IMG/VR virus record: IMGVR_UViG_3300025117_000061
Span: 1 to 64,000 of that record
Strand: one strand, 5' to 3'
From: a virus
DNA length: 64,000 nucleotides
Shown here piece by piece: positions 8,055 to 16,890 of this stretch. A program made the position numbers and the translations under genes. How positions within the stretch are numbered: the stretch's first letter is position 1; each line of letters opens with the position of its first letter. The notes below the pieces were generated by a model. It was given only the letters and a program-made list of their open reading frames with translations. It ran no database searches and had not been told where the DNA came from.

Positions 8055-8068
8055 TTGGAGGATGAGCA

Positions 8069-9613
8069 GTGCCAGTCTACTATAACGACATAGATCCAAT
8101 CTCATGTGCAGTGACCAGAGAGCTAATTCAGGACGGGCTATTGCCGAAAGGATACGTGGATGAGCGACCAATCCAGGAAGTACAGGCAGATGACCTTGTG
8201 GGGTACACTTGGGCATCGTTCTTCAACGGCTTCGGGGGGTGGGTCCACGCCCTTGAGCTTGCAGGATGGCCGAGAGATCGACAAGTTTGGCTCGCGTCCT
8301 TGCCATGCCAGCCATGGTCTTGCGCCGGCAAAGGAGAAGGGGAAGCCGACGAGCGTCATTTGTGGCCCGTCTTCCGCGATCTCGTTGCTCAGTGTCGCCC
8401 TGACTTCATCCTTGGGGAACAGGTGCCGGGAGCGGTTGGGAAGGGTTGGCTCGATGGAGTACGACATGACTTGGAAAATCTCAACTTCGCCGTTGGGGTG
8501 GTCGTACTCCCAGCTTGCGGCCAGGGCGAGGAAGAAGCCATTCTTGTACTTGGGGAAGACGGCTTGCGGGAGAAGAGTGTTCTCGTCGGGCCACCCCACA
8601 TCCGACAACGTTTATTTTGGGGAGCTGTGCGGGTGGCAGACGTGCAAGGCTCACGATGGGGAATGGAGTTCTCCAAGGACGAGCGGAAGACCCATAGAGA
8701 AATCGACGCACCTACAGACTCAGGTTCAGGCTTGTCTGGCGGGATGGCCGACTCCGAAAGTTCAGGAAGCGGAATCCAAGGAGAGGCCAAGTCGGGCGGC
8801 AACCGGACGGACTACGGAGTACCTGGGGAGACAGGTTCAGGGATGCGTCCTAACGGGATGGAACACAACCAGAGCGACAGACTGCACGAACGGGGGGCCG
8901 AATCAGGCGGGCGGTGCGCTGCCGGCGGATGCTGCGATGATCTGCGGATACCCAACGCCGAGAACGATCACGGGCGGCGCGGAGAGTACGGAGAGGAAGC
9001 AGGAGCTTGGCAGGACGGAGAGCGGCGGCGGGGACTTACAGGCTGTTGTGTGCTTGATGGACGGATGGAGAACGCCCAACGCTCAGATGATCGAGCCGAA
9101 GGGCAATGTGACGAAGCTCTGTTGTCGGACTCCGCAAGACCCACAAGTGGGATTGGCGGATCAAGTTGTGATGGTTCAGGGGTGGTGCTCACCAATGGCG
9201 CAGGACCACACGCGGGGGACGGCTCCACCGCGCCCGCAAGACTCAGGGGTCCCACTCAGTCAGCAAGTATCTGGTCTGACTATACCATCGTCACCTGCCG
9301 AGACCGAACCAAGGACGGAATCCCCAAAGCCAGGCGCATCCCAAGGCAGATTGAACCCGGCATTCTCCGCTGTAGCGCTGATGGAATTCCCTATGTCGTT
9401 TCTTCTCTCGGCTCACCGGGCAATCCTGAAATACAACGTTGCGAAGAAGGCCGCGAAGAAGGGGAAGTCTCCACGTTCCCGCTCAGCCCCAAAGAAGCGT
9501 GGCAAGGAAGCAGAGTCGGGCTGTTGAAGCTGGCCGGGAACGCAATCAACTGCAAAATCGCGGCTGAGTTCGTGAGAGGATTCATGGAGTGTATCAACAG
9601 CGACGCACAATAA
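8069..9613 (+). CDS. DNA (cytosine-5) methyltransferase, catalytic frame
   Basis: FNGFGG (motif I), PCQPWS (IV), EQV (VI), HIRQR (VIII), GNAI (X). Confidence 0.9.
   Translation: MPVYYNDIDPISCAVTRELIQDGLLPKGYVDERPIQEVQADDLVGYTWASFFNGFGGWVHALELAGWPRDRQVWLASLPCQPWSCAGKGEGEADERHLWPVFRDLVAQCRPDFILGEQVPGAVGKGWLDGVRHDLENLNFAVGVVVLPACGQGEEEAILVLGEDGLREKSVLVGPPHIRQRLFWGAVRVADVQGSRWGMEFSKDERKTHREIDAPTDSGSGLSGGMADSESSGSGIQGEAKSGGNRTDYGVPGETGSGMRPNGMEHNQSDRLHERGAESGGRCAAGGCCDDLRIPNAENDHGRRGEYGEEAGAWQDGERRRGLTGCCVLDGRMENAQRSDDRAEGQCDEALLSDSARPTSGIGGSSCDGSGVVLTNGAGPHAGDGSTAPARLRGPTQSASIWSDYTIVTCRDRTKDGIPKARRIPRQIEPGILRCSADGIPYVVSSLGSPGNPEIQRCEEGREEGEVSTFPLSPKEAWQGSRVGLLKLAGNAINCKIAAEFVRGFMECINSDAQ
8160..9527 (+). 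CDS. Overlapping-frame MTase partner polypeptide (TRD-like repeats plus motif IX)
   Basis: 455 open codons inside the MTase gene; six GW/Y-x-T/S-P-like repeats then GRLNPAFSAVALMEFP. Confidence 0.65.
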   Translation: MSDQSRKYRQMTLWGTLGHRSSTASGGGSTPLSLQDGREIDKFGSRPCHASHGLAPAKEKGKPTSVICGPSSAISLLSVALTSSLGNRCRERLGRVGSMEYDMTWKISTSPLGWSYSQLAARARKKPFLYLGKTACGRRVFSSGHPTSDNVYFGELCGWQTCKAHDGEWSSPRTSGRPIEKSTHLQTQVQACLAGWPTPKVQEAESKERPSRAATGRTTEYLGRQVQGCVLTGWNTTRATDCTNGGPNQAGGALPADAAMICGYPTPRTITGGAESTERKQELGRTESGGGDLQAVVCLMDGWRTPNAQMIEPKGNVTKLCCRTPQDPQVGLADQVVMVQGWCSPMAQDHTRGTAPPRPQDSGVPLSQQVSGLTIPSSPAETEPRTESPKPGASQGRLNPAFSAVALMEFPMSFLLSAHRAILKYNVAKKAAKKGKSPRSRSAPKKRGKEAESGC

Positions 9614-9648
9614 CCCCCACGCACATGTGGGTTGAGAGGGGAGATGAG

Positions 9649-10287
9649 ATGACACTTAAGGACAGAATCCTGAGAGCTTGCAAGGCTGATTCAATTCCAG
9701 AAGGCGAATCCGGGTTGTGGTCGGTCAACAAGTTTGTCGCAGAGACGGACATCCAAGGATTGAGAGGAGACAAGGAGGAACTACTTCCGGCAGGCAATTA
9801 TACCTACCTTCGCAGGCTTACCACGGGGACGATGCACCGAAACCCGCCCGGCGAAATCGTCATGGAGGACACGGACGTTGAACTGCTGAAGCACATGAAC
9901 TTTATGCTCAAGGTTTACGGTCGAGTCTTAGTGACGGGTCTTGGCCTGGGCTGTGTAGTTCGCGGACTTCTCATGAACCCCGCCGTTGAATCCGTCGTGT
10001 GCATTGAGAGATCTGCCAACGTGCTCAAACTCGTTCGGGACTACATGCCGAAAGAGCGGTTGACCGTTATTCATGCAGACGCCCTTGAATGGACCAAATC
10101 AAACAGTGAGCACTTCGACTGTGCGTACCATGATCTTTGGACCGACCGGGAAGCTGGCGAGCCTCACTTGCAAGTTTGGCACGGTAAGCTGTTAAAGTAT
10201 TGTCGCAACATAGCGAAGCTTCAAGGTGCTTGGGCTTTCCCTCATCAACTCAAGCGAGCCTATGGGCGCCACATAGAATTGGCGTAG
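9649..10287 (+). CDS. class I SAM-dependent methyltransferase (spermidine-synthase-like fold)
   Basis: VLVTGLGLG, VCIE, IHADA, FDCAYHDLW. Confidence 0.8.
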   Translation: MTLKDRILRACKADSIPEGESGLWSVNKFVAETDIQGLRGDKEELLPAGNYTYLRRLTTGTMHRNPPGEIVMEDTDVELLKHMNFMLKVYGRVLVTGLGLGCVVRGLLMNPAVESVVCIERSANVLKLVRDYMPKERLTVIHADALEWTKSNSEHFDCAYHDLWTDREAGEPHLQVWHGKLLKYCRNIAKLQGAWAFPHQLKRAYGRHIELA

Positions 10288-15401: not shown

Positions 15402-15863
15402 ATGTCGGTAATTCCAGAATTTGGAGACAACATCACCACGTTTCAACTTGGGTCGCTCATAGAGAGAACCGGGAAGGCACTCCAACAGCTTCCAATGGCA
15501 TCAATCAAGAACGCTGAGGAGTATGCCGTAGAAGCCATCCAGGGGCTTGAAGGCAGGTTAAAGGCCACGCTCCAATACTTGCAGACCTTTGAAGCCAAGG
15601 TTAATGAGATCGAGAGAGAGGCTTATGAGGTAACTGAGGCCGCATATTCCAAGATGTACGAGCATCGCAAGCGGCTTGAGAAGAAACTTTCCGAGCTTCC
15701 AAAGGTCGAATTCCCCAAAAACCTGAACCTCTATGAGCTCAAGAATTTTCTGGATGTAGCCGACAAACTCTGCGCTATGTCTGATCGTTCATGGGAGCGT
15801 CTTGTGAAAATCATGGAACTGTATAACCAAAGACCCGACTCGGTTGTACCAGAAACGGAATAG
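15402..15863 (+). CDS. coiled-coil hypothetical protein
   Basis: Helical charged composition. Confidence 0.6.
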   Translation: MSVIPEFGDNITTFQLGSLIERTGKALQQLPMASIKNAEEYAVEAIQGLEGRLKATLQYLQTFEAKVNEIEREAYEVTEAAYSKMYEHRKRLEKKLSELPKVEFPKNLNLYELKNFLDVADKLCAMSDRSWERLVKIMELYNQRPDSVVPETE

Positions 15864-15909
15864 CCAACCACGCAATGGCCGGGTCACCACGACCGGCCAA
15901 GGAGGGGAT

Positions 15910-16890
15910 ATGTTGAAGCTTATTGCAGTAGTAACGCCAACGTTTACATACCTGAGCGATTCGGAAGAAAACAGGAATTCACTTAGAACGTCAATTGAAA
16001 AGATGGAATTTGACGGAGCAATTCCACTTTCAACGTTTCATCCCAAGTGGGTTCGTGTAAATCACCTGCCAAAAAATATTCAAGAATGGAAGGCACAGCC
16101 CAACATCAACAAGCGGTGGGAACTCAAAGACAAAGATCTCGCTTCGGACAAGATTCCCCTTGTTCTGTTGCCGGAAGACGTTGGTGAGTACCGTGACGAA
16201 GAATATGATTGGCACTGGAAGGAAGGAATGGACACGTTGAGACCGCTCTATGAGATGCTGTCCGATCCTGCTCCACCCGCGCTGATTAATGTGCCATTCG
16301 AAATCGTTCAACGCATTGATCTTGACGATGTGATTGACTTCAAGGGTTTTAGCTACCCGGTAAAGCGCGACGGGATATGGGACAAGAAAACTACTCCGGT
16401 GACCGACAAAGATGTGAGCCATCAACTTCTTGATCGGATACTCTTCCCGGAAATTGTCCTGGCATCCAGACCGTGCAAGCTTTCATCGAGAGACAGTTAC
16501 GATATCGTCAGGTGCCATGTCCAAAACAACATCGACCCCAAGTATGCCAAGATTACCTCGGACTACGATTTTTGTTTCGCCGTGGAGAAATTGCTTCGAT
16601 ACCACGAGCCGATCCAGTACCAATATGACGCTAATTGGGCCAAGAAACGAGCGAGGCCCAAAATGGTAACGTCATATCGCCAACATCGAACCATGAAGGT
16701 TTTTGAAATGACATGGAGTCCGGAGAACTACAAGGGCTATTCGCCCATCCAGGGATTCCAGGGAGATAGCCATGAAGATCTACACGCCAATATTGAGGCA
16801 TACTTGACGGCACTTATACACGAGATCAACAAACCGATTATGGATTGCCCTACGTGTAAGGGATCTGGCGTAATTGTTGATCCACAATAA
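15910..16890 (+). CDS. hypothetical phage protein with C-terminal CxxCxGxG
   Basis: CPTCKGSG at C-terminus; strong SD. Confidence 0.7.
   Translation: MLKLIAVVTPTFTYLSDSEENRNSLRTSIEKMEFDGAIPLSTFHPKWVRVNHLPKNIQEWKAQPNINKRWELKDKDLASDKIPLVLLPEDVGEYRDEEYDWHWKEGMDTLRPLYEMLSDPAPPALINVPFEIVQRIDLDDVIDFKGFSYPVKRDGIWDKKTTPVTDKDVSHQLLDRILFPEIVLASRPCKLSSRDSYDIVRCHVQNNIDPKYAKITSDYDFCFAVEKLLRYHEPIQYQYDANWAKKRARPKMVTSYRQHRTMKVFEMTWSPENYKGYSPIQGFQGDSHEDLHANIEAYLTALIHEINKPIMDCPTCKGSGVIVDPQ

What the first reader, a model, noticed from the sequence alone, without database searches (positions are those of the whole stretch)
8069..9613. Dual-frame C5 methyltransferase: catalytic motifs in one frame, six tandem TRD-like modules plus motif IX in another
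Seen: frame A (514 aa) has motifs I, IV, VI, VIII and X, but its middle ~250 aa looks like shadow sequence. Frame B (8160-9527) stays open for 455 codons and over that same middle region has six modules starting GWQT, GWPTP, GWNTT, GYPTP, GWRTP and GWCSP, each ending in an L-xx-x-V/A helix, followed by GRLNPAFSAVALMEFP (motif IX-like). Known: M.EcoHK31I encodes a motif IX subunit in an overlapping frame, and Bacillus phage MTases such as M.SPR and M.phi3T use tandem TRDs for multispecificity. Inference: a two-chain, modular, multispecific anti-restriction methylase whose specificity array must expand by units that keep both frames open.
Basis: partly seen in the sequence, partly recalled or inferred. 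Interest (0 to 1): 0.85.

Follow-up and report, generated by a model that had tools for sequence, protein, structure and literature searches.

The report
Two-frame phage cytosine methylase, six cassettes
One 1.5-kb stretch of this uncultured groundwater phage is kept open in two overlapping reading frames that most likely give the catalytic chain and the DNA-recognition chain of one DNA cytosine methyltransferase; the second chain carries six different, exchangeable 30-39-residue cassettes whose role in choosing the methylated sites is plausible but unmeasured.

Summary
ORF A (8069-9613, 514 aa) and ORF B (8160-9527, 455 aa, +1 frame) exist as described.

A has an M.HhaI-like catalytic lobe (aa 1-192), a 206-aa disordered stretch that is the other-frame reading of B's cassettes, and a C-terminal part with motif X. 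B has a disordered tail, a folded beta domain, six GWxTP cassettes, a motif IX-like helix and a C-terminal helix.

- All 80 related viral loci keep both frames open.
- The frame under selection switches A, then B, then A along the gene.
- Frame A has no stops through the cassettes, although 4-8 are expected (Fisher p 5e-75).
- A complex model supports A-B binding.

The cassettes are not DNA repeats. They are six distinct types, each 74-91% identical to cassettes placed elsewhere in proteins only about 30-40% identical overall. Two near-identical Rhodobacter phages differ by one clean 117-nt cassette.

The closest known enzyme is M.EcoHK31I, whose beta chain is read from another frame of the alpha gene. 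Multispecificity and anti-restriction remain untested. This copy has unusual substitutions in motif IX.

This scan has noted the same family before on other DNA (141 notes). I know of no paper that describes the family or its cassettes. Verdict: new variant of a known kind.

The parts
8069..9613 (+). ORF A, 514 aa: the catalytic (large-domain) chain of a C5 DNA methyltransferase. GTG start.
   Evidence: Phage family phrog_363.
8160..9527 (+). ORF B, 455 aa, +1 frame: the putative DNA-recognition (small-domain) chain.
   Evidence: Phage family phrog_1008. No Pfam match.
8057..8062 (+). Shine-Dalgarno-like GGAGGA, 6 nt before A's GTG.
   Evidence: Read from the sequence. The N-terminus (xYYNDxD) matches homologues.
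8147..8152 (+). Shine-Dalgarno-like AAAGGA, 7 nt before B's ATG at 8160. That ATG sits inside A's codons for V-D-E-R.
   Evidence: The first ATG in frame B lies 83-103 codons upstream of the GSxEY motif in most loci, embedded in an xAT-Gxx dipeptide of A.
8069..8644 (+). A aa 1-192: folded catalytic lobe. Motif I at nt 8219-8239, IV at 8303-8320, VI at 8414-8425, VIII at 8594-8620.
   Evidence: AlphaFold2 pLDDT 80-96. Foldseek to M.HhaI: E 1.5e-7, 194 columns, rmsd 3.6 A. Substitutions fall at A's codon position 3.
8645..9262 (+). A aa 193-398: disordered linker. It is the other-frame reading of B's cassettes and is kept free of stops.
   Evidence: pLDDT 30-45. Homologues do not align here. 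No stops observed where 7.9 are expected.
9263..9610 (+). A aa 399-514: C-terminal part. It has a beta hairpin at aa 405-425, a window-specific insertion at about aa 430-472, and motif X GNAI...AAEF at nt 9536-9571.
   Evidence: Substitutions fall at A's codon position 3 in the 3' region.
8160..8384 (+). B aa 1-75: disordered N-terminal tail. It is the other-frame reading of A's motifs I-IV.
   Evidence: pLDDT 43-52. Frame B is open about 101 codons upstream of GSxEY, against 22 in shuffles.
8385..8582 (+). B aa 76-141: folded helix plus beta sheet, including GSMEYDMTWK. It is co-encoded with A aa 106-171 (motifs VI-VII), so this stretch is true dual coding.
   Evidence: pLDDT 80-92. Mismatch rates are damped at all three codon positions. 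It contacts A 143-180 in the complex model.
8631..8741 (+). Cassette 1 (B 158-194, GWQTC...).
   Evidence: 75-81% identical to cassettes in 3 other proteins.
8742..8855 (+). Cassette 2 (B 195-232, GWPTP...).
   Evidence: Similar cassettes in 15 proteins at array positions 1-5.
8856..8945 (+). Cassette 3 (B 233-262, GWNTT...GGPNQAGGALPADAA).
   Evidence: Similar cassettes in 54 proteins at positions 1-5. 83% identical in Rhodobacter phage RcCWillis.
8946..9062 (+). Cassette 4 (B 263-301, GYPTP...).
   Evidence: similar cassettes in 55 proteins. In metagenome run X9 it is found alone with unlike flanks. Of 8 laid variants, 5 are synonymous in B and 0 in A.
9063..9179 (+). Cassette 5 (B 302-340, GWRTP...).
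   Evidence: One similar cassette found (74% identity).
9180..9278 (+). Cassette 6 (B 341-373, GWCSP...PLSQQV).
   Evidence: similar cassettes in 69 proteins at positions 1-6. This is the only cassette with confident contacts to A in the complex model.
9351..9461 (+). B motif IX-like helix LNPAFSAVALMEFP (aa 398-411) plus the C-terminal helix (aa 412-434). The motif IX stretch is co-encoded with A's conserved RR.EPG...G.P segment.
   Evidence: pLDDT 80-90. It contacts A's N-terminal helix 10-24 and A 480-496. The family consensus is LNPxFSxWLMGFPxxW.

Best explanation
The locus encodes a two-chain DNA cytosine-5 methyltransferase from one stretch of DNA read in two frames.

**How the two chains are made (inferred).**
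- Ribosomes starting at GTG 8069 make chain A. It consists of the AdoMet-binding and catalytic lobe (motifs I, IV, VI, VIII), a 206-residue disordered tether, and a C-terminal segment with motif X that folds back onto the lobe. The tether exists only because A must be read through B's cassette region.
- Ribosomes starting at the internal ATG 8160 make chain B. It consists of a disordered tail, a small beta domain, an array of six different 30-39-residue cassettes, a motif IX-like helix and a C-terminal helix.

**How they work together (inferred).** B docks on A through its beta domain, motif IX and C-terminal helix. It thereby supplies the small, DNA-recognition domain that A lacks. Each cassette has a common framework (GWxTP at the start, L..QV at the end) around a variable loop. 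The cassettes are most likely interchangeable target-recognition units, so the array would let one catalytic core protect phage DNA at several sites against host restriction.

**How the array changes.** It changes by gain, loss and exchange of whole cassettes at the conserved junctions, always in multiples of three bases and without creating stops in frame A.

**Shown here by computation:** both frames are conserved and selected, the cassettes are modular and turn over as units, and A-B docking is predicted.

**Inferred, not shown:** that both chains are made, that both are needed, that cassettes read DNA, and that each has its own target.
For: **Both frames are kept.**
- In 80 of 80 viral loci found through a B motif, frame A (271-642 codons) and frame B (220-662 codons) are open over nearly the same span. 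The third frame is open for only 7-182 codons.
- Both frames are annotated as CDS in Escherichia phage K1ind2 and Xanthomonas phage PhiXhv-28.

**The selected frame switches along the gene.** Frame-blind blastn mismatch rates at A's codon positions 1/2/3:

| Region | Pos 1 | Pos 2 | Pos 3 |
|---|---|---|---|
| 5' | .22 | .18 | .50 |
| Cassettes | .295 | .129 | .233 |
| 3' | .136 | .135 | .367 |

In the cassette region the most variable position is A1, which is B's third position.

Variants from other metagenome contigs, laid on the window itself, agree:

| Region | Synonymous in A | Synonymous in B |
|---|---|---|
| 5' | 8 of 11 | 1 of 11 |
| Cassette 4 | 0 of 8 | 5 of 8 |
| 3' | 8 of 11 | n/a |

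**Frame A is kept open through the cassettes.** Shuffles predict 4.3 stops per locus. 72 of 73 loci have none, and the one exception is A's own stop. Fisher p is 4.5e-75.

**One polypeptide cannot carry all the conserved elements.** B's conserved beta domain (nt 8385-8582) lies between A's motif VI (8414-8425) and motif VIII (8594-8620).

**B has a conserved start.** The first ATG in frame B lies 83-103 codons before GSxEY in most loci. In the window it has an AAAGGA Shine-Dalgarno site. Frame B's upstream openness gives Fisher p 2e-6.

**A is a C5 methyltransferase.** PF00145 matches. The profile matches M.HhaI at E 1.8e-17. Foldseek to M.HhaI gives E 1.5e-7.

**A-B docking is predicted.** ipSAE is 0.80 (runs 0.81, 0.80, 0.79), and the best of 3 controls is 0.00. 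That mark was reached by 58 of 80 solved complexes and 2 of 110 mismatched pairs. The runs agree in at least 43% of contacts, and the partner's pLDDT is at least 43. Solved single-chain C5 methyltransferases have the same large-domain and small-domain arrangement, so part of this pass may be likeness from memory.

**The cassettes are modular.** 195 B proteins hold 794 cassettes in about 70 recurring types plus 166 singletons, with 1-13 per protein. A given type occurs at different array positions. Only 13 of 195 proteins repeat a type. The window's cassettes are 74-91% identical to cassettes in proteins only about 30-40% identical overall.

**Cassettes turn over as units.** RcMcLean and RcMcDreamy differ by 20 mismatches and one 117-nt indel that equals one cassette. 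The junctions share the microhomology GCGGGY|TGGCCGAC.

**No fused forms were seen.** The B core profile finds 28,668 cluster representatives. None of the top 150 carries an upstream catalytic domain, and the 10 longest have no Pfam match.

**Precedent and context.** M.EcoHK31I needs alpha and beta chains, with beta encoded in another frame inside alpha (PMC2836561, PMC3404938). The gene sits in a phage early region that also holds a Gad1 anti-Gabija homologue.
Against: - There is no direct evidence that either chain is made. No RNA holder was listed and no proteomics exists.
- There is no measurement of activity or of methylated motifs.
- The cassettes are predicted disordered in isolation (pLDDT 35-50). 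In the complex model only cassette 6 touches A with confidence.
- B has no detectable similarity to any solved structure or to Bacillus phage multispecific methyltransferases. 'TRD' therefore rests on position and behaviour, not on homology.
- The literature places M.EcoHK31I's predicted TRD in alpha, not beta (PMC2836561, PMC3404938).
- The window's B motif IX lacks the family's nearly invariant W and G, and A's motif X has C where the family has P. This copy could be weakened.
- In the cassette region, B's second position varies more than its first. This is not the pattern of a frame under simple purifying selection.
Confidence: 0.72

Rival explanations
1. The enzyme has two chains as above, but the cassettes do not each read a target. 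Together they form one composite, flexible DNA-binding or clamp region (or a spacer). The enzyme then has a single specificity, or a relaxed one, and cassette number tunes affinity or reach.
For: The cassettes are predicted disordered, and only the one next to motif IX contacts A in the model. M.EcoHK31I recognises a single site, YGGCCR (PMC2836561). K1ind2-type relatives of about its size carry two cassettes, although membership of M.EcoHK31I in this family was not tested.
Against: The cassette types are each strongly conserved (74-91% identity) across otherwise divergent proteins. They occur in any order and are rarely repeated within a protein (13 of 195). That pattern fits distinct ligands better than generic repeats of a solenoid.
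Confidence: 0.28
2. One polypeptide is made. The gene would be a normal single-chain methyltransferase read A, then B, then A through two programmed frameshifts, or it would carry two compensating sequencing or assembly errors.
For: The conserved coding signal does switch A, B, A. A joined reading would give the canonical order: motifs I-VIII, variable region, IX, X.
Against: B's conserved beta domain (nt 8385-8582) lies upstream of A's invariant motif VIII (8594-8620) and overlaps motif VI, so no single path holds them all. Frame A is kept stop-free through about 200 codons that it would not need (p 4.5e-75). B has a conserved ATG about 95 codons upstream. The layout is the same in 80 of 80 independent loci and in identical contigs from several metagenome runs. 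M.EcoHK31I is made as two proteins (PMC2836561).
Confidence: 0.03
3. The family is real, but this copy is decaying or inactive. Its motif IX and motif X carry substitutions at nearly invariant positions, and A has a 45-residue insertion before motif X.
For: LNPAFSAVALMEFP compares with the consensus LNPxFSxWLMGFPxxW: the W is lost through a one-codon insertion, G is replaced by E, and the trailing W by F. A has C495 where the family has P.
Against: Both frames are intact over 1.4-1.5 kb. The catalytic residues are present (PCQ, E117, R179/R181, GN). The complex model still places B 397-427 on A with low error. Identical sequence persists in several groundwater and soil runs.
Confidence: 0.1
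4. Frame B, or A's middle, is a chance or compositional open frame with no product.
For: The region has a higher G+C content (0.577) than its surroundings, about 0.51.
Against: The shuffle tests argue against it. B-frame wobble dominates in the cassettes. The profile search finds 28,668 related cluster representatives. Parts of B are predicted to fold with confidence.
Confidence: 0.01

Closest known systems
M.EcoHK31I (E. coli HK31, target YGGCCR): heterodimeric C5 methyltransferase. Lee, Kam and Shaw 1995, as described in PMC2836561 and PMC3404938.
   Same: The second chain is encoded entirely in another reading frame inside the gene of the first. [quoted passage not shown] In M.EcoHK31I both chains are needed for activity. 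In-frame downstream methionine codons (positions 17 and 26) can also start the small chain.
   Different: Sequence relatedness could not be tested, because its sequence and the 1995 paper are not held here. The literature places its predicted TRD in alpha, whereas here the variable cassettes lie in the second chain. It is described as a single-specificity enzyme of a restriction-modification system. The window's gene is an orphan phage gene with a six-cassette array and chains of 514 and 455 aa.
Multispecific C5 methyltransferases of Bacillus phages (M.SPRI, M.Phi3TI, M.H2I, M.Rho11sI). Trautner and colleagues; titles cited in PMC8936443 refs 45, 57, 58 and PMC12707154 ref 31.
   Same: Several short, non-overlapping variable units lie in tandem between motifs VIII and IX of a phage-borne orphan methyltransferase. 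The order and content of the units vary between relatives.
   Different: Those enzymes are single polypeptides read in one frame. No sequence similarity to the window's cassettes was detected in the phage collection. Their one-unit, one-target rule was shown by experiment. Here it is only inferred.
M.AquI (two-subunit C5 methyltransferase; PMC3404938)
   Same: A C5 methyltransferase split into two polypeptides that reconstitute the enzyme.
   Different: As I recall, the M.AquI subunits come from separate adjacent genes, not overlapping frames. Its split lies within the variable region, and motifs IX-X are both in the small subunit (PMC3404938).
M.HhaI / M.HaeIII (solved single-chain C5 methyltransferases)
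   Same: A's N-terminal lobe has the same fold and catalytic motifs.
   Different: Their small domain is in the same chain. B shows no detectable sequence or fold match to it, although the fold test was weak because the model of B is mostly low-confidence.

Membership tests
C5 DNA methyltransferase (Pfam PF00145, Dcm/M.HhaI type) | Motif I, FxGxG (AdoMet binding) | tested here: met
   FFNGFGG at A 51-57. It aligns to M.HhaI motif I in the profile search (domain 1). F52, G54, G56 and G57 are invariant in the family.
C5 DNA methyltransferase (Pfam PF00145, Dcm/M.HhaI type) | Motif IV, PCQ, with the catalytic cysteine | tested here: met
   PCQPWS at A 79-84. P79, C80, Q81, P82 and S84 are invariant. 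PF00145 scores 35.2 bits against a cut-off of 22 over aa 74-150.
C5 DNA methyltransferase (Pfam PF00145, Dcm/M.HhaI type) | Motifs VI (ENV) and VIII (QxRxR) | tested here: met
   GEQV at 116-119 and RQRLFW at 179-184, with invariant columns. They align to M.HhaI 71-174 (E 1.8e-17).
C5 DNA methyltransferase (Pfam PF00145, Dcm/M.HhaI type) | Motifs IX and X in the same chain after the variable region | tested here: not met
   Motif X (GNAI, A 490-493) is in A. The best motif IX-like sequence (LNP...LMEFP) is in frame B. A's own C-terminal match to M.HhaI 268-310 is not significant, at -3.6 bits.
C5 DNA methyltransferase (Pfam PF00145, Dcm/M.HhaI type) | Large-domain fold | tested here: met
   Foldseek of the A model to M.HhaI gives E 1.5e-7, 194 columns and rmsd 3.6 A. 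M.HaeIII is also matched.
M.EcoHK31I-type two-chain C5 methyltransferase | Second chain encoded in another frame within the first chain's gene | tested here: met
   B (8160-9527) lies inside A (8069-9613) in the +1 frame. The arrangement is conserved in 80 of 80 loci.
M.EcoHK31I-type two-chain C5 methyltransferase | Large chain carries motifs I-VIII and X; small chain carries motif IX | tested here: met
   The motif IX assignment in B rests on pattern and family conservation only. No significant match to solved methyltransferases was found.
M.EcoHK31I-type two-chain C5 methyltransferase | Both polypeptides are made and both are required for methylation | not testable with these tools
   Only a complex model is available: ipSAE 0.80, best control 0.00.
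M.EcoHK31I-type two-chain C5 methyltransferase | Sequence homology to M.EcoHK31I alpha and beta | not tested
   The sequence is not on hand. PMC306636 is not held. No protein with that name appeared among the 120 best relatives of K1ind2 B.
Multispecific phage C5 methyltransferases (SPR / phi3T type) | Several tandem variable units between motifs VIII and IX | tested here: met
   Six cassettes lie at B 158-373, between A's motif VIII and B's motif IX in nucleotide order.
Multispecific phage C5 methyltransferases (SPR / phi3T type) | Single polypeptide | tested here: not met
   The cassettes are in frame B and the catalytic motifs are in frame A.
Multispecific phage C5 methyltransferases (SPR / phi3T type) | Each unit confers one target specificity | not testable with these tools
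   Only indirect support: the cassette types are conserved, shuffled and rarely repeated.
Multispecific phage C5 methyltransferases (SPR / phi3T type) | Sequence similarity of the units to SPR-type TRDs | tested here: inconclusive
   tblastn of B 77-455 against 50,697 phage records at E up to 0.01 found no Bacillus phage. Units this short could escape detection.

The most novel reading that the evidence does not exclude
Each cassette would be an autonomous mini target-recognition domain. The family (at least 28,000 sequence clusters, 1-13 cassettes per protein, at least 70 recurring types) would then be a natural plug-and-play system. Phages would assemble multispecific cytosine methylases by recombining cassettes at GWxTP junctions, under the added rule that every cassette must also read through without stops in the catalytic chain's frame. 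The window's enzyme would protect the phage at up to six different sites.
Probability: 0.4. Interest if true: 0.85.

Novelty: new variant of a known kind. Interest (0 to 1): 0.7.

Why it matters
Long same-strand dual coding of two folded, interacting proteins is rare. In the literature it is so far treated as a curiosity of a single enzyme, M.EcoHK31I. Here it appears as the rule for a very large phage family, with measurable selection in both frames.

If the cassettes set target specificity, three things would follow:
- It would explain how phages escape many restriction systems with one small gene.
- It would give a catalogue of short, portable DNA-recognition units for cytosine methylation.
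- It would offer a natural test bed for how modular evolution works under two-frame constraint.

There is also a practical point. Annotation pipelines usually record only one of the two proteins.

Tried and rejected
- **Fold search for B.** Searching the B model against 48,161 solved chains gave nothing above Z 3.5. The hits were only the C-terminal helices. The model is mostly low-confidence, so this says little.
- **Sequence search for B.** The B profile against Protein Data Bank sequences gave no hit better than E 1.4. NCBIfam has no match for B.
- **Papers not held.** The original M.EcoHK31I paper (PMC306636) and Trautner 1996 (PMC450048) are not held. PMC2836561 has no supplements held. 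Homology to M.EcoHK31I and the exact TRD sizes therefore could not be checked.
- **Looking for M.EcoHK31I by name.** The 120 best relatives of K1ind2's B protein are named only 'Mte8-like', 'DNA methyltransferase' or 'hypothetical'.
- **Literature searches.** Searches for the name 'Mte8', for 'C-specific methylase' and for overlapping-frame phage methylases found no paper describing this family.
- **DNA-level tandem repeat.** Rejected.
- **Close variants of the window's gene for a formal dN/dS.** The groundwater and soil runs hold identical sequence. Only short, more distant pieces from other organisms could be laid.
- **Expression.** No RNA holder was listed.
- **Close relatives of the phage.** None were found in the phage collection by large terminase.
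- **Shine-Dalgarno upstream of B's ATG across loci.** 41 of 72 loci have a loose match, with no control, so this is not used as evidence.
Full report
**What is there.** The window is part of an uncultured phage. It holds a YqaJ recombinase domain, a Gad1 anti-Gabija homologue, a primase-helicase, a terminase and a portal. It has no close relative in the phage collection. Identical sequence occurs in groundwater and soil metagenome runs.

At 8069-9613 lies ORF A (GTG start, 514 aa). Nested in its +1 frame, at 8160-9527, lies ORF B (ATG start, 455 aa). The third forward frame is open for only 51 codons at mid-gene. A is preceded by GGAGGA at a 6-nt spacing, and B by AAAGGA at a 7-nt spacing.

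**Chain A.**
- Pfam PF00145 matches aa 74-150.
- A profile of 40 family members matches M.HhaI motifs I and IV-VIII (E 1.8e-17).
- AlphaFold2 folds aa 1-192 with confidence. Foldseek places that lobe on M.HhaI and M.HaeIII (E 1.5e-7, 194 columns, rmsd 3.6 A).
- Residues 193-398 have pLDDT 30-45, are rich in G, S, R, E and D, and cannot be aligned between homologues.
- The last 115 residues are conserved again and end in GNAI...AAEF, which is motif X.

**Chain B.**
- It has no Pfam or NCBIfam match. It belongs to phrog_1008, which is labelled DNA methyltransferase.
- It has 517 or more relatives in one search, and 28,668 cluster representatives in a profile search.
- AlphaFold2 orders aa 76-141 (a helix plus a beta sheet, including the family motif GSxEYxLTWK) and aa 400-434 (a motif IX-like helix and a C-terminal helix). 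The first 75 residues and the cassette array are low-confidence.

**Is the double frame real?**
- I fetched 80 viral loci through a B motif. In every one, frame B and the frame one base upstream (A) are open over nearly the same span. Frame A carries motifs I, IV and X.
- Frame-blind blastn alignments between loci show substitutions concentrated at A's third position in the 5' part (.22/.18/.50) and in the 3' part (.136/.135/.367). In the cassette and motif IX zones they concentrate at B's third position (A1 .295, A2 .129, A3 .233). The pattern is damped where both frames encode folded parts.
- Variants from other metagenome contigs, laid directly on the window, agree. Synonymous changes in A are 8 of 11 (5'), 0 of 8 (cassette 4) and 8 of 11 (3'). 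Synonymous changes in B are 1 of 11 (5') and 5 of 8 (cassette 4).
- Shuffling B's synonymous codons predicts 4.3 stops in frame A per locus, and 7.9 in the window. 72 of 73 distinct loci have none, and the exception is A's own stop. Fisher p is 4.5e-75. A is therefore read through the array to reach its conserved C-terminus.
- B's frame is open about 101 codons upstream of its first conserved motif, against 22 in shuffles (Fisher p 2e-6). The first ATG in frame B lies 83-103 codons upstream of that motif in most loci, inside an xAT-Gxx dipeptide of A.

**One chain or two?** A joined A-B-A product cannot hold all the conserved elements. B's beta domain (nt 8385-8582) overlaps A's motif VI (8414-8425) and lies upstream of A's invariant motif VIII (8594-8620). 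With the stop-free linker and B's own start, this points to two polypeptides.

A complex model of A with B 96-455 supports binding. The ipSAE is 0.80 (runs 0.81, 0.80, 0.79), and the best of three controls is 0.00. That mark was reached by 58 of 80 solved complexes and 2 of 110 mismatched pairs. The runs agree in at least 43% of contacts, and the partner's pLDDT is at least 43.

The interface joins these parts:
- B's beta domain with A 143-180.
- B's motif IX and C-terminal helix with A's N-terminal helix (10-24) and motif X region (480-496).
- Cassette 6 with A 400-429.

Solved single-chain C5 methyltransferases have the same two-domain arrangement, so part of this pass may be likeness rather than independent evidence.

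**The cassettes.** They are not DNA repeats.
- Across 195 B proteins I cut 794 cassettes. They fall into about 70 recurring types plus 166 singletons, with 1-13 per protein.
- A given type occurs at various array positions. Only 13 proteins repeat a type.
- Each window cassette has counterparts 74-91% identical in proteins that are only about 30-40% identical overall. The counts are 3, 15, 54, 55, 1 and 69 proteins for cassettes 1 to 6.
- In a wastewater run, many contigs match cassette 4 alone, with unlike flanks.
- Rhodobacter phages RcMcLean and RcMcDreamy have genes 98.3% identical apart from one clean 117-nt indel. The indel is exactly one cassette, bounded by GCGGGY|TGGCCGAC on both sides, and both frames are preserved.

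This shows that the array changes by whole units. It does not show what the units do.

**Comparison with what is known.** M.EcoHK31I is described as an alpha/beta enzyme whose beta chain is encoded in another frame inside alpha, with motif IX in beta (PMC2836561, PMC3404938). The layout here is the same. Homology could not be tested, and the literature puts that enzyme's predicted TRD in alpha. Bacillus phage multispecific methyltransferases carry tandem TRDs, but in one chain, and no sequence similarity was detected. No fused form of B with a catalytic domain appeared among the best 150 representatives or the 10 longest.

**Caveats for this copy.** B's motif IX reads LNPAFSAVALMEFP. It lacks the family's nearly invariant W (a one-codon insertion) and its G. 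A's motif X has C where the family has P. A also has a 45-residue insertion before motif X. The copy is intact in both frames but may be divergent or weakened.

**Earlier notes of this scan.** A word search found 141 notes in at least 132 genomes on two-frame C5 methyltransferases, including one with six cassettes. They agree with my reading, which I reached before seeing them. They are not independent evidence.

**Verdict.** This is a new variant of a known kind.

Noticed in passing
window 15844-16890 (+): A 348-aa ORF is a strong match to Pfam PF25705, Gabija anti-defense 1 (Gad1), at E 1.6e-77. An anti-defence gene therefore lies 6 kb downstream of the methylase in the same early block.
   Followed up: no
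window 9589-10287 (+): A 232-aa ORF overlaps the last 25 nt of ORF A. It has a weak hit to the spermidine-synthase-like SAM methyltransferase fold (21.9 bits, just under the 22.9 cut-off). It may be a second methyltransferase directly downstream.
   Followed up: no
window 9351-9392 and 9536-9571: This copy departs from the family at nearly invariant positions. B's motif IX has lost the W through a one-codon insertion, has G replaced by E and has the trailing W replaced by F. A's motif X has C495 in place of P.
   Followed up: partly
L084 (RcMcLean) 795-2072 versus L087 (RcMcDreamy) 891-2075: The methylase genes of these near-identical cultured Rhodobacter phages differ by one clean 117-nt cassette indel with junction microhomology GCGGGY|TGGCCGAC. 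This is a ready natural experiment for assigning a cassette's function.
   Followed up: yes
window 8955-9045, run X9: In a wastewater metagenome run many contigs (summed depth up to 343) match only cassette 4 at 80-95% identity. Their flanks are unlike the window, and one continues into another ..NWPTTP cassette.
   Followed up: partly
L071 2317-4303; L015/L016, L022 and L057: In L071 the B frame runs about 1 kb past A's stop (662 codons). In L015/L016, L022 and L057 the A frame runs 500-660 nt past B's stop. These may be fusions to further domains.
   Followed up: no
P0040 (612 aa), P0289 (834 aa), P0316 (762 aa): Very long B-family proteins exist. P0040 has 13 cassettes by my segmentation. 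None of them has a Pfam domain.
   Followed up: partly
window 9348-9400 and family alignments A2 and A3: At the motif IX stretch both frames are conserved position for position: A reads RR.EPG.FPLAHG.P and B reads LNP.FS.WLMG.P. Both readings resemble M.HhaI motif IX. The reason is unexplained.
   Followed up: partly
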